In this document: positions 30,586 through 42,733 of the stretch, one piece after another
Position numbering within the stretch: the stretch's first letter is position 1
Layout of the letters: each line of letters starts with the position of its first letter
Assembly (NCBI GenBank): GCA_963731375.1
Contig: CAVSUW010000008.1
Location: 82,920 to 146,919 of the forward strand
Origin: Bryobacterales bacterium
Lineage (GTDB): Bacteria; Acidobacteriota; Terriglobia; Bryobacterales; Bryobacteraceae
DNA: 64,000 nucleotides
Reading direction: 5' to 3'
Position numbers and translations under genes: made by a program
The notes under the pieces: model-generated
The model's input: the letters and a program-made list of their open reading frames with translations, nothing else
Told to the model about the DNA's origin: nothing
Databases searched by the model: none

Positions 30586-32403
<1,818 letters not shown>

Positions 32404-32405
32404 CG

Positions 32406-33202
32406 CTAAAGAATTCTCCAATCGTGCCAGACGCCCATCGCGCACAGGCGCACGTAAACATCCGCGAAGCCCACGAAGAACATGCTGACCCAGGCCCACT
32501 TCATGTGGCTGCGGTTCAGGCAGCTCACGCAATCGTAAGCCTTCTTGCGCACCGGCGATCCCGACAGAACGTCCTTGATTCCGCCCACCAGGTGACGGAA
32601 CGAGTGGCAGCCGAAGGTGTAGCCGCCCAGCAGAATCGGATTCAGGATCAGCACCAGCGATCCCACGCCGATGCCGAAATGTTTGACACCATCCGGCGCC
32701 CGTGAACCACAGCGACCGGTAGCCGTCAAACAGCAGGATGAACACGAAGATGATCGCGAAGTACAGGAAGTAGCGATGGACGTTTTGCAGAATCAGCGGA
32801 AACTTCTTTTCGCCGCGATAGGTCTTGCGCGGCTCCCCAACCGTGCAGGAGATCGGATCCACCCAGAACGCCTTGTAGTAAGCGCCGCGATAGTAGTAGC
32901 AGGTGAAGCGGAACAAACCCGGAAACGGCAGGATCAACATCGCCGCCGAGAACGGCAGAAACGCCGGCCACCAGGCAGGCGCCGAAGTGTAGCAGCAGCG
33001 GCGAGTACATCGGCGACAAATAGTCCGCGCCGCCGCACTGCGTCGTGCACAAATAATTGTTGCCCTGCAGCGCGGCCCACGTCGCGTAGACGATGAAGGC
33101 CATGTAGCCAAGAAACACCAGAATGGGTTCTACCCACCAATTGTCGGTACGGCGCGTGCTACCGAATCCCCCGTCTTTTAGGGGGACATCAATCGAAGAC
33201 AT
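32406..33202 (-). CDS. sdhC: succinate dehydrogenase cytochrome b subunit (single large membrane anchor), frame-disrupted
   Basis: MSSIDVPLKDGGFGSTRRTDNWWVEPILVFLGYMAFIVY, FRFTCYYYRGAYYKAFW, GGYTFGCHSFRHLVGG. Three fragments. No separate sdhD. Confidence 0.8.
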
Positions 33203-33514
33203 GTGAGTCGGACTCCTGCGGCTGGAAAAGGTGGGGCAAAATTCAAGGATAGCGCCGAGGATCACGTATATCAAGCACGGCAGCGGCCGAGGTCGAGCTA
33301 TCTGTCAGTCTGATCGGAGAGCCTGCGATCGCGACGGCATCTGGCTCGAACGCAGCGTAGATGCCCGCCTCCAATTTCGATCTCAATACTTGGTAGACCA
33401 TCCTTCGTTTCGTTCTTATAGACGGGCGGAGTGTCTTTGGGAAGACAGACCTTTTCTTTGACTCGTCTGGTGACCGGGCGACGGATCAGGCGCAAGAAAA
33501 AACGATCGAACGTA

Positions 33515-33799
33515 TTACCGATCGGTCGATCCACCTCCGCTAATTTCGATCCTGATTTCGTCGGTGACCCGGAAAACATAAGTGACCGAGAGCGCAATCG
33601 CTGACGCATAAGGAACTGCCCATTTTTCGAGATTGCTCCTCGCCGCAGGCTGCAAGCACGGTCGTGCCCCGACAAAAGTTTGAATGCCGTCAGAAGTCAC
33701 CACGAACTGAACTGTCCCTCCGATTCTGGCGGATCGAGCCAGCGCCGGATACTTGAATCCATCCAAGTTGGGTTGGACAGGTTCCTGCGCGCTCATCAT
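33515..33799 (-). CDS. small TonB C-terminal-domain-like protein (possibly continuing in frame 33298-33675)
   Basis: YPALARSARIGGTVQFVVTSDG matches the TonB_C core. No N-terminal anchor or Pro-rich spacer. Lies in a lower-GC stretch. Confidence 0.35.
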   Translation of the reverse strand: MMSAQEPVQPNLDGFKYPALARSARIGGTVQFVVTSDGIQTFVGARPCLQPAARSNLEKWAVPYASAIALSVTYVFRVTDEIRIEISGGGSTDR

Positions 33800-34066
33800 G
33801 AGCAGCCGCGCAAGACGCGAGCATGGACAATTTCAGCATCATCCGGTCAGCCCTCTGTTGATTATCGAACGTTTGGGCCAGTACCCGCGTCAGCGCCGCG
33901 TATCTCCATAGCCTGCAACAAGTTGCCTGCTGTCCCGTTCAATCCCGCTAAACCCCATCCAATGCCCCTAACGCCCTTCGCTTCAATAATCTAGCCCTCA
34001 CTTCCCGGCGCCCTATACTGAAACTTCTTTAATTCGCACTCACTCTAATTCCCTGGAGATCGCCCC

Positions 34067-36172
34067 TTGACTAAGCCGATCAAGCACGTTGAAAAAGCAG
34101 TAGCCGTGGCCGCCAACGCGGCCTGGTTTGTTTTTGACAAGCTGAATTCGATCAACCCGAACCCTTCCTTCACGCCGAAGTGGTCCGACAAGCCCTTGCT
34201 CAAGAGCTGGGAAAAGCAGAAGCCCAAGCTGGGCTGGCCGCGCGAGACCGATTCGCTCTGCCCCAAGTGCATCCCCGACATCCGCCAGCAGATCCTCGAC
34301 GGCAAGCTGCCGGTCGAGATCCTGAAGAACGAAAAGCTGGGCGAGATCAAGGCCAAGATCATCGAGAAGGACGGCAAGATCGTCATGGTGAAGGAGTGCG
34401 CCATCCACGGCCACTTCGAAGACCTGATGTCGATCGATCCCGCCTTCAGCCAGCACCTGGAAGACGTGTTCCCCGGCCGCGACATCCGCGCGCACAACGA
34501 CGAAAAGCTGCACGATCACGGTTCGAGCACCATCACGCACGGCCGCGGCTCGGTTCTGACCATCGATCTCACCAACCGCTGCAACATGATGTGCGATCCG
34601 TGCTTCATGGACGCGAACCAGGTCGGCTTCGTGCACGAGCTGACGTGGGAAGACATCAAGACGCTGCTCGACAACGCCATTTCGATCAAGCCGCGCCGCC
34701 AGCTCTCGGTGCAGTTCTCCGGCGGCGAGCCGACGCTTTCGCCGTACTTCCTGGACGCCATCCGCTATTGCCGCAAGCTCGGCTATCAGAGCGTGCAGGC
34801 CGCGACCAACGGTATCGAGTTCGCCAAGCGCCCCGAGTTCGCGAAAGAAGCCGCCGAAGCCGGTCTGCGCTACGCGTATCTGCAATTCGACGGCATCGGC
34901 AACGAAGCCAACTCGCATCGCGCCGTCGGCAACCTGTTCGACGTGAAACTGCGCGCCATCGAGAACCTGTATAGCGCCGGCGTCGACATCGTCCCGGTGA
35001 TCACGCTGATCAACGGCGTGAACAATGAGCAGGTGGGCGCCGTGGTGCGCTTCGCCCTCGACAATCCCAAGAAGATTCCGTTCCTCAGCTTCCAGCCGGT
35101 GTCCTTCACCGGACGCGACGAAGCCGTCACTCCGGAACGCCGCAACGCCCAGCGCTACACGCTGGCCAACCTGGCGCACGACGTGAAGAATCAGACCGGC
35201 CTCGGCGAGCCGGTGCGCGACTGGTTCCCGATCTCCTTCATGAGCACGTTCTCCGACTTCGCCGATCTGGTCCACGGACCGAACGCGGATTGGGGCCAGT
35301 TGAGCTGCGGTTGCCATCCCAACTGCGGCATCGGCATGGCCGTGATGTGCGACAAGGAAACCAAGGAATACCGCCCGGTCACCGCGTTCCTGAACGCCGA
35401 TCAGTTGGCTCGCGACGTCGCCAAGATCAACGATGGCGCGCGCAGCAAGAAGATGTCGGTGTTCGGCGTGTCGCTCGCGCTGCTCCGCAACTACAATCCC
35501 TACGAAGCCCCCACGCACTTCCGCCTGAGCGATCTGATCGCCAAGTTCGACAAGTGCTTCGGCATGACCGGCAAGAAGTACGGCAAGGTCACCGGCGACC
35601 GCACCATGGACGACATCGAAATGCGCCGCAAGGACCGCTGGAACTTCCTGTTCATCGCCGGCATGTGGTTCCAGGATCTGTTCAACTACGATTTCCGCCG
35701 CACCGAGCAGTGCATCATCCCCTACGCCACGCAGGAAGGCGAGATTTCCTTCTGCGCGTACAACACCGGCGTCGGCTGGCGCAACATCATCGAGAAGATG
35801 CACATGACCGCCACGCTCACCAAGTGGTACGAGGAGAAAGGCCGTCACGAAATCATCGCCGGCGGCAAGAACGTCAACCTGCCGAGCACCGAGCACAACC
35901 TGGTGCTGCGCGCCGATGACGTCAACAAGCTACGGCAGCACGATCTCGACGACCTGGGCATCGCCAAGACCGCCCGCGAAGAGAAGAAGCGCGCCCGCGA
36001 CGCCAAGCAGAAGGAAGCCGCCGAAAACGCTCACATGCTGGCGATGTACAACGAGCACGTGCTGGGCGTGAAACCGACTCCCGGCATCGTCCCGCTCAGC
36101 GCCATCGCCCCGCCGCCCCCAAGCCGGCCGCAACGCAGGAAGAAGTCGGTTCCTTCGGCGATTAGTTTCTGA
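34067..36172 (+). CDS. radical-SAM protein with auxiliary Fe-S/metal sites, tetraether lipid synthase (Tes/GDGT-MAS)-like
   Basis: Intact 701 aa. TTG start 10 nt after GGAG. N-terminal C65-x2-C68...C111-x2-H114. Radical-SAM CNMMCDPC (C172/C176/C179, nt 34580-34603). SAM motif FSGGEPT. Later Cys cluster SCGCHPNCG...C428, plus C497, C549, C563. Basic and Pro-rich C-terminal tail. Followed by a terminator hairpin. Confidence 0.8.
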   Translation: MTKPIKHVEKAVAVAANAAWFVFDKLNSINPNPSFTPKWSDKPLLKSWEKQKPKLGWPRETDSLCPKCIPDIRQQILDGKLPVEILKNEKLGEIKAKIIEKDGKIVMVKECAIHGHFEDLMSIDPAFSQHLEDVFPGRDIRAHNDEKLHDHGSSTITHGRGSVLTIDLTNRCNMMCDPCFMDANQVGFVHELTWEDIKTLLDNAISIKPRRQLSVQFSGGEPTLSPYFLDAIRYCRKLGYQSVQAATNGIEFAKRPEFAKEAAEAGLRYAYLQFDGIGNEANSHRAVGNLFDVKLRAIENLYSAGVDIVPVITLINGVNNEQVGAVVRFALDNPKKIPFLSFQPVSFTGRDEAVTPERRNAQRYTLANLAHDVKNQTGLGEPVRDWFPISFMSTFSDFADLVHGPNADWGQLSCGCHPNCGIGMAVMCDKETKEYRPVTAFLNADQLARDVAKINDGARSKKMSVFGVSLALLRNYNPYEAPTHFRLSDLIAKFDKCFGMTGKKYGKVTGDRTMDDIEMRRKDRWNFLFIAGMWFQDLFNYDFRRTEQCIIPYATQEGEISFCAYNTGVGWRNIIEKMHMTATLTKWYEEKGRHEIIAGGKNVNLPSTEHNLVLRADDVNKLRQHDLDDLGIAKTAREEKKRARDAKQKEAAENAHMLAMYNEHVLGVKPTPGIVPLSAIAPPPPSRPQRRKKSVPSAISF

Positions 36173-36186
36173 TTTAGTCTGGGCTC

Positions 36187-36220
36187 AAGGCTGCTCGCAA
36201 TGCGGGCAGCCTTTTTCATT
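36187..36220 (+). terminator. rho-independent terminator after the radical-SAM gene
   Basis: Perfect 8-bp stem AAGGCTGC/GCAGCCTT with an 11-nt loop, followed by TTTCATTT. Confidence 0.7.
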
Positions 36221-36919: not shown

Positions 36920-37744
36920 TTGGAGACCATCTTTCGAAAAGAACGGCTGATCGTCGGCGGCTGCCTCGCCGTCATCGTGCTGGCCGCCTGGTGGTACCTT
37001 TTTCACACTCGCGGGTCGATGTCAAACATGAACATGTCCGATATGGACATGCGTGCGATGAACATGCCCGGCATGGATATGTCTAACATGAACATGCCGA
37101 ACATGAACATGTCGGGCACGGATCAATGGGGGCCGTCGGCCGTCCTCCTGCTCTTCGTGATGTGGACAGTGATGATGGTCGCCATGATGGTGCCCTCCGC
37201 GGCTCCGATGGTCCTCGCTTTTCTCAGCGTCAACCAACGCCGCCAAGCCGCCGGTCGAGCGTTCGTGCCGGTCGGCATCTTTCTCGCTGGATACCTGGCG
37301 ATTTGGACCGCATACTCCGCCGTCGCGACTCTAGCTCAGTGGGGATTGCATAAAGCCGCACTCCTCTCGCCTGCGATGACCGCCACCAGCCCGGTCCTGA
37401 ACGGCGGCCTGCTCATCGCGGCGGGCATCTTCCAATGGACCCCGCTCAAGCGCGGGTGCTTGAAAGGTTGCCGCTCGCCGCTCTCCTTTCTGATGAGCGA
37501 ATGGCGCGACGGCTGGTCAGGCGCCTTCATCATGGGATTGCGGCACGGTTCCTATTGCGTTGGCTGCTGCTGGATATTAATGGCCCTGCTCTTCGTCGCA
37601 GGCGTCATGAATCTGCTCTGGGTGGCCGTGATTACGATCTTCGTGCTGGCTGAGAAAACGGTGCCGCGCGGCGAATTGCTCGGTCACGTCGCAGGCGTGG
37701 CGCTAGTGGCCGCCGGTATCGGACTGATGGCGCGCGTCTGGTAA
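36920..37744 (+). CDS. DUF2182-family predicted metal-binding membrane protein with Met-rich N-terminal loop
   Basis: TTG at 36920 in the frame of ORF 36656-37744. One TM helix, then MSNMNMSDMDMRAMNMPGMDMSNMNMPNMNMSG, then helices with MWTVMMVAMMVPSAAPM and GSYCVGCCW. DUF1326/DUF2182 are commonly adjacent. Confidence 0.65.
   Translation: METIFRKERLIVGGCLAVIVLAAWWYLFHTRGSMSNMNMSDMDMRAMNMPGMDMSNMNMPNMNMSGTDQWGPSAVLLLFVMWTVMMVAMMVPSAAPMVLAFLSVNQRRQAAGRAFVPVGIFLAGYLAIWTAYSAVATLAQWGLHKAALLSPAMTATSPVLNGGLLIAAGIFQWTPLKRGCLKGCRSPLSFLMSEWRDGWSGAFIMGLRHGSYCVGCCWILMALLFVAGVMNLLWVAVITIFVLAEKTVPRGELLGHVAGVALVAAGIGLMARVW
37019..37116 (+). repeat. imperfect ATG-AAC-ATG-type coding microrepeat (Met-rich tract)
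   Basis: 14 Met codons in 33 codons, built from atgaacatg / atggacatg / atggatatg units. Confidence 0.9.
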
Positions 37745-39586: not shown

Positions 39587-40705
39587 TCATTTCTTCGGCT
39601 TCCCGTATCCCTGCCACAGATATTCCAGCGCCTCCGGCAGCGTTTGCTGTTTCACGGTGCGGTCGGTGTGCCCGGCGTTGCGCGCAAATACAAATTGATA
39701 ATGATAGCCCTTGGCCGCGAGCACCTTGGCCATCTCTTCGTTCGCCACGACCCAGTCGTGCATTTCGTCGCGCATGACATTCGGATTGTACAGGTCCCGG
39801 TCGCCCACTTCCATCCACAGCCGAATCGGCTTGACTGGGCTCTCCGGGATCAGGTGTCTATGAAATTCCCATGCGCCGCCGGGAGTCTCAGGATTCGGCG
39901 GCCACTGCTGGTTCACATACGTGCCCGAGTACGTCAGAACGCGGTGATAGAGTTCCGGGTGATACCACGCCATGATCAACGCGCAGGAACCGCCGGAACT
40001 GCCGCCCATGGTCGCGCGGCCCTCGGGATCTTTCGTCAATTTCACGCTGTATTGTTTCTCGACCAGCGGCAGCACTTCGGTTTCGACGAACTCCGCGTAG
40101 CGTGGCGACATGGTGTCGTATTCCAAGCCGCGCTCGCTGCCTTGCGCGTCGCCGCTGCCGTTGCTGATGGAGATCGCGATCATCGCGGGCACTCGTTTCT
40201 GGGCGATCAGATTATCCAGCGCCGCGAACAGCAGCGGATCGGGTCCGTCCGCACCGACAATGAACGGCGCGGCGCTGCCGGGGACGTATTGCTTCGGAAC
40301 ATACACCGCGACTCGGCGCGTGTAGGGCGCTGGATGACTGGTGGTCACGATCAGCTTGGCCGGATCGTTGGGATCGGCCGTGCCGAAGGTGCCCGGTTCG
40401 CGCGCGATGCCGGGATAAAGTTTGCTGTCCGCCGAATTCATCGTGAAGTTGTAGATGGTTCCCTGCGGCACGCCTTCCTGGACCGCCATCTCCGGCGCAG
40501 GGTTGTGCGTCGGCCCGATGATGAAATTCCCATCGGCGTCCGCGGGAGCGTTGGCCCCGTCAGGCAATTCTTTCGCGGTGACATAACCGGGAGTGTGCGG
40601 ATCGCGCGTCGGCGGCGTCGGACGTGCCGGCGGCGCTGGCGGCGGAGTTTGCGCGAAGGCAGTGGTCAGGGAGATCAGGGTTGCGATGCTGAGAAGACGG
40701 AACAT
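39587..40705 (-). CDS. secreted esterase (enterochelin-esterase-like alpha/beta hydrolase)
   Basis: Intact 372 aa. Signal peptide MFRLLSIATLISLTTAFAQ, Pro-rich linker, RVAVYVPKQY, nucleophile elbow MGGSSGGSCA, GHTD. Confidence 0.75.
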   Translation of the reverse strand: MFRLLSIATLISLTTAFAQTPPPAPPARPTPPTRDPHTPGYVTAKELPDGANAPADADGNFIIGPTHNPAPEMAVQEGVPQGTIYNFTMNSADSKLYPGIAREPGTFGTADPNDPAKLIVTTSHPAPYTRRVAVYVPKQYVPGSAAPFIVGADGPDPLLFAALDNLIAQKRVPAMIAISISNGSGDAQGSERGLEYDTMSPRYAEFVETEVLPLVEKQYSVKLTKDPEGRATMGGSSGGSCALIMAWYHPELYHRVLTYSGTYVNQQWPPNPETPGGAWEFHRHLIPESPVKPIRLWMEVGDRDLYNPNVMRDEMHDWVVANEEMAKVLAAKGYHYQFVFARNAGHTDRTVKQQTLPEALEYLWQGYGKPKK

Positions 40706-40723
40706 GGGACGTCCTTTCGTGAA

Positions 40724-42618
40724 CTACTTCGCCGCGTATGAAAGAGCGATCGAAGCCATCGCCGTCCCCGCCTGCGAAATCCATTGGTCGTGTTCGTAGG
40801 GAAATCCGCTCTGGAAATACGGCTGGAATCCCAAGCGCTCGCGTGGCCACGTGCCAGGTGCCGTCTTCCTGCTGCGTGCGGAGCAAGAATTCGACGCCCC
40901 GCCGATAAACCGGGTCGGACGCGCTCATTCCAGTTTCGTGGAGCGCCCACAGTGCTTCGCCGGTCGCATAACCGTCCGAAGCGAGATTGTCAGTTTGCCC
41001 CCAGCCACCATCGGCGCCCTGTTTTGCGATCAGCTGTTGGCTATATTTCGATGGCGCTTTGCGTCCGGCCCACGCGATACCCAGAAGCTGCATGCTGCGA
41101 TCCTCCGTGCTGCGCGGCTCGGCCGCTTCCAGCCACTTCGCGGCGCGCTCGACACGCTCGTCAAACTCAGCCTTGCGCCCAGCGATAGCATACTGGCGCA
41201 AGACACGGATGGCCTTCGCAGTTTGCGTGAAGCTGCCGTCTTCGAGCGGAGGCCGGACGGCGCCGAAGAGCGGCCAATCGCCTTCTTTGCGCTGCAAGGC
41301 GGCAGTGTAGTGAACCATCGAATCGGTGGATAGAGTCGGAGGCACGTTCGCAGCAGCTAACTGCATGAGTGAGAACTCCATGCCATCGACGCCGGGCGGG
41401 GGATCCTGAAGCTGGAACATCTCCTGATCCAAAAGTCCTCGCAGAGTAGCGGTAGCAGCGGCCCTGCGATCCTCCAGCGGGTAATCGGCCGGAATGCCAA
41501 GAGGCTTGGCGCTAGAGACTGCGATGCCGTTGAGATGGTCGGCATGGCAGGAGACGCAGCCGCCCGTCATGACAAAATTGGCTGCGGCGGGCTGGCATAC
41601 GGCCAGCGCTTTGGCGATTGCCTCGCGCGGTGTGCGGCGCGGCGAACCTGCGGGCGCTCGGTCCTCAAGCTTCGCGGGCGAGAGACCCAGCAGCGGAAGA
41701 ATAGCCGGATCCTGGTAGCGGCGCGCCCACTCGAGAGCCGGTTCGCGGTCCGCGCCCTTGTCCAGAAGCAGCTTCACGATTTTCGGATTGGGACGGTCCG
41801 TCGCCACGGCGAATACCAAAGGCGTCGCGTTGCGAACGTCCTTCGCGTTGACATCGGCGCCGGCCTTGAGAAGCGCTTCGGTAGCTTCGATAGTTGGCCT
41901 GCGCAGCGAATTGCAGAGGAGTCAGGTGGCCCAGCTTAATGGCGCCGTTCTTGACCATCTCTATGGTGTCGCCGCTCTTCGCATTGACCTTGGCGCCGTG
42001 CTCGATCAGCAGCTTGACCATCGCCGCGTTGTGGTCGCCATTGCCTGCGGCATCCAGCAGCGGGGTGAAGCCGAGCTCATCCGCGTTGTTGACGTTAGCA
42101 CCCTTGGCGATCAGGATCCGAGCGAGTTCGATATTGTTCGCGGCCGCCGCGAGTTCGAGAACACTAGTACCGCTCTTGTCGCGAGCATTGACGTCCGCGC
42201 CCTTTTCAAGCAATAGGCGAGCGGCTTCGATGGCGCCATCGTTGTAAGCGTTGATGAGGAGCGGAGTGCGGCCAAGCTTCGAGCGCGCATCGGTTTTCGC
42301 GCCTTTGGAGAGCAGCAGCCGGACCTTGGCCGCGTCTCCGGCGCACCACATAAGAGGCGTCGCGTCGAAATTGTTGGCGACGTTGGGATCGGCGCCGGCG
42401 TCGAGCAGCAGGCGCATGCTTTCCAGGCTGCCCAGCGCGGCGGCGTACATCAGCGGTGAGTTGCCGCGGGCGTCACGGGCGGCAGGTCCCGGTTCGCGGA
42501 TAAGCTGGCGCAGAGCGGCCAGATCGTTGTTGCGGATCGGCAGATAGAAAGGGCTGACTTCGGCCGCCGGGCAAAGCGCGGCGACTGCCATAGCAAGGAG
42601 CACGATGCGTATTTTCAT
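40724..42618 (-). CDS. secreted ankyrin-repeat / CxxCH haem-motif / prenyltransferase-squalene-cyclase-like toroid-repeat protein, frame-disrupted
   Basis: Signal peptide MKIRIVLLAMAVAALCPA. At least 7 ankyrin repeats (GNSPLMYAAALGSLESMRLLLDAGADPN ...). GGCVSCHADH. Toroid repeats QRKEGDWP, KQGADGGWGQ, RTQQEDGTWH. The inferred native end FQPYFQSGFPYEHDQWISQAGTAMASIALSYAAK-stop is at 40724. Confidence 0.65.
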
Positions 42619-42733
42619 GTTCTCTCCAACATTGGTCCCCGGTAACTGGGCGGTAAGGATTAAGTCGAGTCTACAACAAAGACATGTCCGAAGTGTTTTC
42701 AGGTCATCACGCTATAATAGGGCTGGGGATATT

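What the first reader, a model, noticed from the sequence alone, without database searches (positions are those of the whole stretch)
34067..36220. Intact 701-aa radical-SAM enzyme resembling archaeal tetraether lipid synthase (Tes/GDGT-MAS): candidate bacterial membrane-spanning-lipid synthase
Seen in sequence: one uninterrupted ORF with its own RBS (GGAG) and its own terminator hairpin (36187-36220). It carries an N-terminal C-x2-C...C-x2-H site (C65/C68/C111/H114), the radical-SAM CX3CX2C box (C172/C176/C179), FSGGEPT, and a second Cys-rich region (C414-x-C416-x3-C420...C428, then C497/C549/C563). The tail is basic and Pro-rich. Established knowledge: archaeal Tes / GDGT-MAS is a radical-SAM enzyme with extra [4Fe-4S] clusters and a rubredoxin-like iron site that couples two lipid tails by C-C bond formation. 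Tes homologues have been noted in Acidobacteria, and Solibacter-type acidobacteria make branched GDGTs, but to my knowledge no bacterial enzyme for that tail-to-tail coupling has been shown biochemically. Inference: this ORF is such a homologue. It is also one of the few genes over 2 kb in the window with no frame break. No other lipid genes flank it, so it is a stand-alone transcription unit.
Basis: partly seen in the sequence, partly recalled or inferred. Interest (0 to 1): 0.85.

Follow-up and report, generated by a model that had tools for sequence, protein, structure and literature searches.

The report
Cluster-poor Tes-like lipid radical-SAM enzyme
This intact acidobacterial gene encodes a distant, longer relative of the archaeal enzyme that welds two lipid tails into membrane-spanning lipids; it keeps the catalytic core but has lost one iron-sulfur cluster, and although it is a published yet untested candidate for making bacterial membrane-spanning lipids, it is not the close Tes homologue usually cited for that role.

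Summary
The ORF is 34067-36172 (+): 701 aa, TTG start, GGAG RBS, own terminator, every listed Cys/His in place. It is a real GDGT-MAS/Tes relative: best PDB sequence hit 7TOL (E 1e-59), and the AF2 model matches 7TOM at TM 0.85, 28 orders of magnitude ahead of the next fold. The rubredoxin site, radical-SAM cluster, C-terminal cluster (C420/C549/C563 + Met533), Tyr553 and the SAM loop are conserved. All three Cys of the N-terminal auxiliary [4Fe-4S] cluster are missing (LHDHGSS replaces CPxxCGxC). It scores 309 bits against NCBI's Tes model (cutoff 450) and falls in a clade separate from canonical Tes. It matches the second, "long" S. usitatus homologue (Acid_2410: 714 aa, 30% identity, 4e-62), not the 545-aa Acid_5929 (40%, 1e-139) that drove the brGDGT hypothesis. 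The long class is under strong purifying selection (dN/dS 0.055) and occurs across Terriglobia and Vicinamibacterales, lineages reported to make iso-diabolic acid. No neighbouring genes are conserved. The lipid-coupling idea dates from 2022 and was still untested in the literature I could search (to August 2026). The bacterial enzyme Mss has been demonstrated, but is reported absent from Acidobacteria. Verdict: a real, plausible candidate, with a refined identity and moderate novelty.

The parts
34055..34058 (+). Ribosome-binding site GGAG, 8 nt upstream of the TTG start
   Evidence: Sequence read directly
34067..36172 (+). Complete ORF, 701 aa plus stop: long-class Tes-like radical-SAM protein
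   Evidence: The exact protein is already in public collections as P0391. dN/dS 0.055.
34067..34237 (+). N-terminal extension (aa 1-57), absent from GDGT-MAS. Predicted amphipathic helix at aa 3-26, then a conserved PSFTPKWSDKPLLKS...LGWPRETDS segment.
   Evidence: AF2 secondary structure; hydrophobic moment 1.5; 65-84% column identity; also present in Vicinamibacterales members
34238..34432 (+). Rubredoxin-like zinc-ribbon domain (aa 58-122). Ligands C65, C68, C111 and H114 correspond to C9, C12, C33 and H36 of GDGT-MAS. The spacer is 42 residues instead of 20, i.e. a 22-residue helical insertion.
   Evidence: Pfam PF23545 E 2.8e-12; ligand alignment; 100% conserved
34484..34555 (+). Site of the lost N-terminal auxiliary [4Fe-4S] cluster (aa 140-163). 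LHDHGSSTITH replaces CPYDCGLCPNH. H149 and H151 are 100% and H158 95% conserved in the class.
   Evidence: the model has low confidence here (pLDDT 52-60)
34556..35131 (+). Radical-SAM core (aa 164-355): C172-x3-C176-x2-C179, GGEP at 219-222, and SAM-loop residues Q343/S346/R350 (Q268/S271/R275 of GDGT-MAS)
   Evidence: Pfam PF04055 E 4.8e-21
35132..35806 (+). C-terminal auxiliary-cluster and lipid-pocket domain (aa 356-580). C420, C549, C563 and Met533 correspond to C338, C455, C470 and Met439; Tyr553 to Tyr459. C414, C416 and H417 are also invariant within the class.
   Evidence: fold match to 7TOM across this domain
35807..36169 (+). C-terminal extension (aa 581-701), absent from GDGT-MAS. 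Aa 581-600 are conserved (90% over the 576-600 block); a charged helix spans about 636-664; the basic Pro-rich tail is variable and predicted disordered.
36187..36220 (+). Intrinsic-terminator-like hairpin (12 bp, 8 G-C) followed by a T-run
   Evidence: sequence

Best explanation
The ORF encodes a member of a distinct 'long' class of Tes/GDGT-MAS-like radical-SAM enzymes. This class is found across Acidobacteriota and matches S. usitatus Acid_2410 in length and similarity values.

Shown: it has the GDGT-MAS fold and keeps three of that enzyme's four metal sites. These are the rubredoxin-like Fe site, the SAM-cleaving [4Fe-4S] cluster and the C-terminal [4Fe-4S] cluster with its labile Met ligand. 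It also keeps the invariant Tyr and the SAM-closing loop. It has lost the surface N-terminal [4Fe-4S] cluster and gained conserved N- and C-terminal extensions.

Inferred mechanism, by analogy with GDGT-MAS:
1. Reductive cleavage of SAM yields a 5'-deoxyadenosyl radical.
2. The radical abstracts H from the terminal methyl carbon of an iso-branched C15 chain of a glycerolipid bound in a hydrophobic tunnel.
3. The substrate radical is parked as a C-S bond on the C-terminal cluster.
4. A second SAM activates the tail of a second lipid.
5. The two tails join by a Csp3-Csp3 bond, giving an iso-diabolic-acid-type or brGTGT/brGDGT-type membrane-spanning lipid.

Electron supply must differ from the archaeal enzyme because the N-cluster relay is missing. 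The amphipathic N-terminal helix and the basic C-terminal tail may hold the enzyme on the membrane (speculative).
For: - Superfamily and fold: best NCBIfam hit is Tes. Best PDB sequence hit is 7TOL at E 1.2e-59 over residues 93-578. The AF2 model (pLDDT 79, pTM 0.84) matches 7TOM at E 5.5e-36 and TM 0.85; the next fold is at 1e-7.
- Catalytic residues: they map one-to-one onto the crystallographic ligands and are invariant across long and canonical classes and in 79 orthologous loci.
- Selection: dN/dS 0.055-0.17; 74-97% identity across Terriglobia.
- Distribution: Bryobacteraceae, Acidobacteriaceae, Edaphobacter, Korobacteraceae and Vicinamibacterales. Subdivisions 1, 3 and 6 are reported to make iso-diabolic acid.
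- No competing candidate: no Mss homologue was detected in the acidobacterial genomes screened. E. aggregans makes iso-diabolic acid and brGDGT-Ia, and has a single Tes homologue with long-class values (32%, 4e-61).
- Chemistry: iso-C15 and phytanyl tails have the same terminal structure.
Against: - No experiment exists for any bacterial Tes homologue.
- One of the four GDGT-MAS cofactors is missing, and the protein fails NCBI's Tes equivalog cutoff.
- S. usitatus carries a long-class gene (Acid_2410) but makes no detectable iso-diabolic acid. Its brGDGTs could be made entirely by the canonical paralogue Acid_5929.
- No lipid gene is a conserved neighbour.
- Sahonero-Canavesi et al. found Tes homologues in only 3 of 14 iso-diabolic-acid-producing acidobacteria and proposed an alternative pathway. 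However, their 30% identity cutoff falls inside the long class's 29.8-33.4% range.
- Presence in subdivision 4 producers was not established here.
- The equivalence with Acid_2410 and with the E. aggregans protein rests on length and reported similarity values, not on their sequences.
Confidence: 0.55

Rival explanations
1. It is a functionally diverged paralogue. It is still a radical-SAM enzyme with a Tes-like fold that uses the C-terminal cluster for radical chemistry, but it acts on another substrate or position. Examples would be a different lipid modification (mid-chain cross-link, ring closure) or a non-lipid hydrophobic metabolite. Tail-to-tail coupling in Acidobacteria would then be done by canonical Tes where present, or by an unknown enzyme.
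For: - It forms a separate clade from canonical Tes in the NJ tree and falls below the Tes equivalog cutoff.
- It has lost the N-cluster and gained extensions and a 22-residue insertion in the rubredoxin domain.
- It coexists with a canonical Tes in S. usitatus, which suggests non-redundant roles.
- S. usitatus has it but makes no iso-diabolic acid.
- Related degenerate lineages (P0137, P0146, P0179, P0143) have lost further ligands, so the clade is functionally plastic.
Against: - Every residue tied to the GDGT-MAS coupling mechanism (C-cluster Cys, Met439, Tyr459, SAM loop) is invariant.
- It is the only Tes- or Mss-like candidate reported in E. aggregans.
- Its distribution fits the iso-diabolic-acid-producing subdivisions.
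Confidence: 0.3
2. It is a 7,8-dihydro-6-hydroxymethylpterin dimethyltransferase (HMPTM), as many JGI records and the Pfam zinc-ribbon domain name imply. It would methylate a pterin cofactor precursor.
For: JGI names many family members this way. Pfam PF23545 is named after HMPTM.
Against: The annotation derives from the old assignment of MJ0619. Lloyd et al. could not corroborate that activity and showed MJ0619 is GDGT-MAS. From general knowledge, Acidobacteria are not known to make methanopterin. No pterin genes are nearby.
Confidence: 0.02
3. It belongs to another radical-SAM subfamily, for example TrsS-like (seleno)proteins, SPASM peptide maturases or haem/cofactor enzymes such as NirJ/AhbC/MoaA. 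The Tes resemblance would then be limited to the shared core.
For: TrsS is the second-best NCBIfam hit at 206 bits. NirJ1, AhbC and MoaA hit at E 1e-15 to 1e-21.
Against: - TrsS scores 206 against a cutoff of 490. The other families align only to the RS core, roughly residues 143-365.
- The Tes model and the 7TOL structure cover residues 61-580, including the C-terminal domain.
- No precursor peptide or partner genes are conserved nearby.
Confidence: 0.03
4. It is a decaying or non-functional relic in a window that is rich in frame-shifted genes.
For: Neighbouring genes carry single-base insertions.
Against: - The ORF is intact over 2.1 kb with its ligands intact.
- dN/dS is 0.055.
- The identical protein is recorded in public collections.
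- Orthologues are 74-97% identical in about 600 species genomes.
Confidence: 0.02

Closest known systems
GDGT-MAS / Tes (M. jannaschii MJ0619, PDB 7TOL/7TOM; M. acetivorans MA_1486; NCBIfam NF045702)
   Same: - Whole-chain fold (TM 0.85).
- Rubredoxin-like CX2C...CX2H iron site.
- CX3CX2C radical-SAM cluster and GGE motif.
- C-terminal [4Fe-4S] cluster with three Cys plus the labile Met.
- Invariant Tyr and the Q/S/R SAM-closing loop.
- Probably the same two-SAM, cluster-sulfur-assisted Csp3-Csp3 coupling chemistry (inferred).
   Different: - Lacks all three Cys of the N-terminal auxiliary [4Fe-4S] cluster, so 2 clusters plus 1 Fe are predicted instead of 3 plus 1.
- 31% BLASTP identity, and 309 bits against a 450-bit cutoff.
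- 57-residue N-terminal and about 120-residue C-terminal extensions, plus a 22-residue insertion in the rubredoxin domain.
- Bacterial host; the presumed substrate is iso-C15 acyl or alkyl glycerolipid on glycerol-3-phosphate rather than archaeol.
Canonical bacterial Tes homologues (S. usitatus Acid_5929, 545 aa; Ca. Koribacter versatilis homologue; representative P0178 here)
   Same: Same superfamily and the same proposed role in brGDGT synthesis. Both occur in Acidobacteriota, and both classes coexist in S. usitatus.
   Different: The canonical class keeps the CPxxCGxCxxH N-cluster motif and is about 500-550 aa. It is 35-45% identical to archaeal Tes (E 1e-99 to 1e-149) and passes the NCBI Tes cutoff at 474-593 bits. 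This ORF does none of these and sits in a separate clade.
S. usitatus Acid_2410 (Q025C7, 714 aa) and the single E. aggregans Tes homologue: the 'long' class
   Same: Length of about 700 aa. Their similarity to archaeal Tes (30-32% identity, E about 1e-61) is the same as measured here for 80 long-class members (29.8-33.4%, 199-227 bits). Both are already listed in the literature as possible brGDGT enzymes.
   Different: The window protein comes from an uncultured Bryobacteraceae-like genome.
Mss, membrane-spanning lipid synthase of Thermotoga maritima and Thermoanaerobacter ethanolicus
   Same: A radical-SAM enzyme that couples two fatty-acyl tails into diabolic or iso-diabolic acids. It is the only bacterial enzyme shown to do so. 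Its AlphaFold models are reported to share the Tes catalytic architecture.
   Different: It is a different family: no Tes homologue was detected in those organisms, and no Mss homologue was detected in the Acidobacteria screened. It is known only from anaerobes and was active in E. coli only anaerobically. It was not compared directly here because no Mss sequence was on hand.
TrsS radical SAM (seleno)protein (NCBIfam NF045646)
   Same: Second-best family hit. Shares the zinc ribbon and the RS core.
   Different: 206 bits against a 490-bit cutoff. The match ends at about residue 378, so the C-terminal cluster domain is not shared.

Membership tests
Tes / GDGT-MAS (NF045702 equivalog) | Radical-SAM CX3CX2C cluster and GGE SAM-binding motif | tested here: met
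   C172/C176/C179 align with C98/C102/C105; GGEP at 219; Pfam PF04055 E 4.8e-21
Tes / GDGT-MAS (NF045702 equivalog) | Rubredoxin-like mononuclear Fe site C9-x2-C12...C33-x2-H36 | tested here: met
   C65/C68/C111/H114; PF23545 hit; alignment. The spacer is 42 residues instead of 20.
Tes / GDGT-MAS (NF045702 equivalog) | N-terminal auxiliary [4Fe-4S] cluster ligated by C73, C77, C80 and a His | tested here: not met
   The three Cys positions are a gap, H151 and S154; H158 aligns with His83 in the pairwise alignment but not in the multiple alignment. The local sequence is LHDHGSSTITH. The same holds in all 79 orthologous loci. One representative that passes the Tes cutoff (P0255) also lacks these Cys, so the feature may not be universal.
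Tes / GDGT-MAS (NF045702 equivalog) | C-terminal auxiliary [4Fe-4S] cluster: three Cys plus labile Met439; invariant Tyr459 | tested here: met
   C420/C549/C563, Met533 and Tyr553 align. Cys and Met are invariant across both classes, Tyr553 nearly so and 100% within the long class.
Tes / GDGT-MAS (NF045702 equivalog) | Score at or above NCBI's curated cutoff (450 bits) | tested here: not met
   308.9 bits. Canonical representatives score 474-593.
Tes / GDGT-MAS (NF045702 equivalog) | Whole-chain fold, including the C-terminal lipid-pocket domain | tested here: met
   Foldseek 7TOM E 5.5e-36, TM 0.85 normalised to the target, 557 aligned columns
Tes / GDGT-MAS (NF045702 equivalog) | Catalyses tail-to-tail Csp3-Csp3 coupling of two glycerolipid chains | not testable with these tools
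   Needs expression or knockout plus lipidomics. No bacterial Tes homologue has been tested according to the literature up to August 2026.
Long Tes-like class (Acid_2410 type) | About 650-715 aa; 30-33% identity and E about 1e-60 to archaeal Tes; N- and C-terminal extensions; no N-cluster Cys; CxCHPxCG motif | tested here: met
   701 aa. 31.5% identity and 206 bits to MJ0619; the class range is 29.8-33.4%. Extensions and motifs are conserved. Published values for Acid_2410 are 714 aa, 30.1%, 4.2e-62.
Long Tes-like class (Acid_2410 type) | Direct orthology to Acid_2410 or the E. aggregans protein (reciprocal best hit) | not testable with these tools
   Those sequences could not be retrieved. 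This is inferred from length, scores and the presence of the class in Edaphobacter and Bryobacteraceae.
Mss (bacterial membrane-spanning lipid synthase) | Sequence homology to T. maritima / T. ethanolicus Mss | not tested
   No Mss sequence was on hand. The literature reports no Mss homologues in the acidobacterial genomes screened.
TrsS (NF045646) | Score at or above 490 bits over the full model | tested here: not met
   206.5 bits; the best-scoring stretch covers residues 91-378
HMPTM pterin dimethyltransferase (legacy annotation) | Pterin C-methylation activity | not testable with these tools
   The founding assignment of MJ0619 was not reproducible and has been superseded by GDGT-MAS.

The most novel reading that the evidence does not exclude
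The long, N-cluster-less class would be the missing membrane-spanning-lipid (iso-diabolic acid) synthase of aerobic Acidobacteriota. It would be a third solution alongside archaeal or canonical Tes and the Mss of anaerobes. Loss of the surface-exposed [4Fe-4S] cluster and the new terminal extensions would adapt Tes chemistry to ester-linked iso-C15 lipids and to oxygenated cells. Canonical Tes (Acid_5929 type) would be a separate, diether-condensing brGDGT enzyme. On this reading the published '3 of 14 acidobacteria have Tes' figure is a threshold artefact, and the gene could serve as a marker for iso-diabolic-acid and brGDGT producers in soils.
Probability: 0.35. Interest if true: 0.8.

Novelty: new variant of a known kind. 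Interest (0 to 1): 0.5.

Why it matters
Branched GDGTs are among the most widely used terrestrial palaeotemperature and pH proxies. The enzyme that joins the two alkyl chains in Acidobacteria, their only cultured producers, is still unknown. Tes homologues are the published candidates, but the literature pools two different proteins under that name.

This analysis shows the window's gene belongs to the widespread, highly conserved 'long' class. That class has a different cofactor complement from the canonical Tes-like enzyme. This makes a clear comparison possible: express or delete each class separately. It also suggests that earlier negative surveys may have missed this class because of an identity cutoff.

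If the long class proves to be the iso-diabolic-acid or brGDGT coupling enzyme, it would give a gene marker for proxy-lipid producers. It would also show radical-SAM C-C coupling working with one fewer auxiliary cluster. If it does something else, it would be a new reaction on the Tes scaffold.

Tried and rejected
- Conserved gene neighbourhood: I clustered all ORFs from 80 related loci. Apart from shadow ORFs inside the gene itself, no neighbour is shared by more than 20 of 80 loci, and none is lipid-related (QueG-like, ABC ATPase, MutY and others). Only the closest relative, L001, is syntenic downstream.
- Second Tes-like gene in the window: tblastn with canonical representatives hits only this ORF.
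- RNA regulators and promoter: Rfam found nothing credible. There is no sigma-70-like promoter.
- Source record of the window: the exact protein is in the collection (P0391, 301-kb contig), but two look-ups for its encoding contig failed.
- Table S21 of Sahonero-Canavesi et al. (which acidobacteria were Tes-positive): the supplement is not held. Zeng et al.'s supplement has no species-level list.
- The S. usitatus locus tags do not appear in any searchable main text.
- HMPTM, TrsS, SPASM-maturase and pseudogene readings were considered and rejected.
- The origin of P0255 (it lacks N-cluster Cys but passes the Tes cutoff) could not be decided from its gene context.
Full report
**1. The observation.**
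The ORF is real and as described. It runs 34067..36172 on the + strand and encodes 701 aa from a TTG start. An in-frame stop at 34046 blocks any upstream extension, and GGAG lies 8 nt before the start. The hairpin at 36187-36213 (12 pairs, 8 G-C) followed by a T-run is the best terminator-like site in the region. The gene is under strong purifying selection, with dN/dS 0.055 against the nearest relative and 0.09-0.17 against more distant ones.

**2. What it resembles.**
- Pfam finds a Radical_SAM core (residues 168-330) and the 'HMPTM' zinc ribbon (58-122).
- The best NCBIfam model is tetraether lipid synthase Tes. It covers residues 61-580 but scores 308.9 bits against a curated cutoff of 450. 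TrsS is second at 206 bits (cutoff 490). Other radical-SAM families match only the core.
- The best solved structure by sequence is GDGT-MAS (7TOL), at E 1.2e-59 over residues 93-578. MoaA follows at 2e-5.
- An AlphaFold2 model (pLDDT 79.3, pTM 0.84) matches 7TOM/7TOL at E 5.5e-36 with TM 0.85 normalised to the target. The next fold, HydE, is at 1e-7.

Superfamily membership and a shared overall fold are therefore secure.

**3. Ligand-by-ligand test.**
Lloyd et al. describe four metal sites in GDGT-MAS. I reconstructed the alignment numbering, which reproduces the paper's residue numbers. A multiple alignment with canonical representatives confirms the mapping.

| GDGT-MAS site | GDGT-MAS residues | This ORF | Result |
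|---|---|---|---|
| Rubredoxin Fe | C9, C12, C33, H36 | C65, C68, C111, H114 | conserved |
| RS cluster | C98, C102, C105 | C172, C176, C179 | conserved |
| [4Fe-4S]C | C338, C455, C470 + Met439 | C420, C549, C563 + Met533 | conserved |
| Invariant Tyr | Y459 | Y553 | conserved |
| SAM loop | Q268, S271, R275 | Q343, S346, R350 | conserved |
| [4Fe-4S]N | C73, C77, C80 | gap, H151, S154 | Cys ligands absent |

At the N-cluster site the local sequence is LHDHGSSTITH, where canonical proteins have CPxxCGxCxxH.

Within 79 orthologous loci all retained ligands are 100% conserved. So are C414, C416, H417, H149 and H151. C235, C428 and C497 are not conserved (15%, 35% and 60%).

The protein also differs from GDGT-MAS in three other ways:
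- a conserved 57-residue N-terminal extension beginning with an amphipathic helix;
- a 22-residue insertion in the rubredoxin domain;
- a roughly 120-residue C-terminal extension, ending in a variable, basic, Pro-rich tail that is predicted to be disordered.

**4. Two classes of 'Tes homologue'.**
A search of 1.84 billion representatives returned full-length relatives that fall into two groups.

| Property | Canonical type | Long class (this ORF and relatives) |
|---|---|---|
| Examples | P0178, P0187, P0189, P0191 and others | this ORF, P0121 (59% identical), P0135 (46%) |
| Length | about 500-550 aa (most) | about 600-715 aa |
| N-cluster motif | present | absent |
| NCBIfam Tes score (cutoff 450) | 474-593 bits | 299-414 bits |
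| BLASTP against MJ0619 | 35-45% identity, 309-438 bits | 29.8-33.4% identity, 199-227 bits (80 members) |

P0178 lies in a bacterial context next to obg and coaX. A neighbour-joining tree places the long class, P0121, P0135 and some more degenerate relatives apart from the canonical clade that contains MJ0619. The tree is midpoint-rooted and distance-based, so it is only indicative.

The literature shows the same split. Halamka et al. Table S5 lists two S. usitatus homologues of MA_1486:
- Acid_5929: 545 aa, 40.2% identity, 1.4e-139.
- Acid_2410: 714 aa, 30.1% identity, 4.2e-62.

Zeng et al. give 40-42% identity for the Solibacter and Koribacter 'top hits', and 32% (4e-61) for the single E. 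aggregans homologue. The window's protein therefore corresponds to the long, distant class. It does not correspond to the homologue that led Chen et al. to S. usitatus. This correspondence rests on length, scores and taxonomy. I could not retrieve those sequences.

**5. Distribution and context.**
The best 80 are 74-97% identical. They come from Bryobacteraceae, Acidobacteriaceae (including cultured Acidipila rosea and Granulicella aggregans), Terracidiphilus and Ca. Angelobacter.
- Further searches add Edaphobacter, Korobacteraceae and Vicinamibacterales. The Vicinamibacterales proteins show the full long-class signature.
- So the class spans at least subdivisions 1, 3 and 6, which are reported to make iso-diabolic acid. 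I did not establish presence in subdivision 4.
- No neighbouring gene is conserved across loci. In the window the flanks are a divergent, frame-shifted succinate dehydrogenase on one side. On the other are DUF1326, PpoB2, Rrf2, DHODH and RidA.
- Farther out lie an acyl-CoA dehydrogenase, an enoyl-CoA hydratase fragment, an esterase, ankyrin proteins, DUF1385 and RF-1.
- I found no membrane-lipid biosynthesis genes, no Rfam element and no second Tes-like gene. The stand-alone reading is correct.

**6. Literature status.**
- Zeng et al. proposed bacterial Tes homologues as brGDGT enzymes in 2022.
- Chen et al. used the idea to find brGDGTs in S. usitatus.
- Halamka et al. proposed 'one or both' S. 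usitatus homologues as the enzyme.
- Sahonero-Canavesi et al. showed that Mss from Thermotoga and Thermoanaerobacter makes diabolic acids in anaerobic E. coli. They found no Mss in Acidobacteria, and Tes homologues in only 3 of 14 iso-diabolic-acid producers, and so suggested an alternative pathway.
- Their criteria were E <= 1e-50 and identity >= 30%. The long class sits at 29.8-33.4% identity to a Methanococcales Tes, so that count may well be an underestimate. I could not verify this species by species.
- Papers from 2025-2026, including an August 2026 review, still describe bacterial Tes homologues as bioinformatic predictions only.

**7. Most likely mechanism.**
Shown: the fold, and all residues implicated in SAM cleavage and in the cluster-sulfur-assisted coupling of GDGT-MAS.

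Inferred:
- The enzyme abstracts H from the terminal methyl carbon of an iso-C15 chain.
- It stores the radical as a C-S adduct on the C-terminal cluster.
- It uses a second SAM to activate a second tail, and forms the C-C bond.
- The product is an iso-diabolic-acid-type or brGTGT/brGDGT-type lipid.

Speculative:
- Loss of the surface N-cluster changes the electron-entry route and may reduce oxygen sensitivity.
- The conserved His residues at that site may bind another metal.
- The terminal extensions may mediate membrane association.

I put about 0.97 on membership of the Tes superfamily and the GDGT-MAS fold, and about 0.55 on tail-to-tail lipid coupling as the physiological function. The main rival (about 0.3) is a diverged paralogue with another substrate. 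It is supported by coexistence with canonical Tes in S. usitatus, and by the absence of iso-diabolic acid there.

**8. Verdict.**
The gene is real, intact and selectively maintained, and it is a legitimate candidate. The candidate idea was published in 2022, and the exact protein is already in public databases, where family members carry conflicting names (radical SAM protein, HMPT dimethyltransferase, tetraether lipid synthase). This analysis adds four points:
- the gene belongs to a separate long class;
- that class lacks one of the four GDGT-MAS cofactors;
- it is far more widespread in Acidobacteriota than '3 of 14' implies;
- it should be tested separately from the canonical class.

Interest is moderate at 0.5. 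It bears on a long-standing open question and is directly testable, but it is not a new hypothesis and no function has been demonstrated.

Noticed in passing
window 36412, 36470, 36926, 38878; also 31546-33274 (- strand): The window carries single-base insertions relative to the syntenic locus L001, which has intact genes. They break DUF1326 (two insertions) and DHODH; another lies at 36926, near the start of the PpoB2 gene. None is in a homopolymer run. The succinate dehydrogenase flavoprotein and cytochrome b genes upstream are also split between frames. I could not decide whether these are assembly errors or real pseudogenes. With about one break per kb, an intact 2.1-kb ORF is not in itself significant (P about 0.1).
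   Followed up: partly
window 36980-37744 (about 37020-37130): The PpoB2/DUF2182 gene ('copper chaperone' family) has a Met-rich stretch, MNMSDMDMRAMNMPGMDMSNMNMPNMNMSG. Its length differs from L001 by several indels. It sits in a DUF1326-PpoB2-Rrf2 cluster immediately downstream of the Tes-like gene.
   Followed up: no
L006 and L008 (genome contigs): Two MAG records titled 'Bordetella' carry a gene 87-88% identical to this acidobacterial protein. The bins are probably mislabelled taxonomically.
   Followed up: no
P0143, P0137, P0146, P0179, P0150 (representative proteins): More distant relatives in the same N-cluster-less clade have lost further sites. P0143 has no CX3CX2C box at all, so it is probably a pseudo-enzyme. 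P0137, P0146, P0179 and P0150 lack C-terminal cluster ligands. The clade appears functionally plastic.
   Followed up: partly
P0255 (locus L084): This 510-aa protein passes NCBI's Tes cutoff (584 bits) although it lacks the three N-cluster cysteines. The N-terminal auxiliary cluster may therefore not be universal even among proteins annotated as Tes. Its archaeal or bacterial origin could not be decided from its gene context.
   Followed up: partly
P0178 (loci L081, L082): A canonical Tes (516 bits, N-cluster motif present) is encoded in a clearly bacterial context next to obg, a TrmE/Der-type GTPase gene and type III pantothenate kinase. Full-complement Tes enzymes therefore also exist in bacteria.
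   Followed up: partly
window 40563-42711 (- strand): Two adjacent ORFs encode ankyrin-repeat proteins. One has a weak hit to the squalene-hopene cyclase C-terminal repeat (E 3e-6, just above the gathering score). Its significance is unknown.
   Followed up: no
window 33515-33799 (- strand) and the 790-bp gap upstream of the ORF: The long upstream intergenic region contains only a 94-aa ORF with no Pfam hit. No sigma-70-like promoter and no Rfam element were found. Synteny with L001 ends about 300 bp upstream of the start codon.
   Followed up: partly
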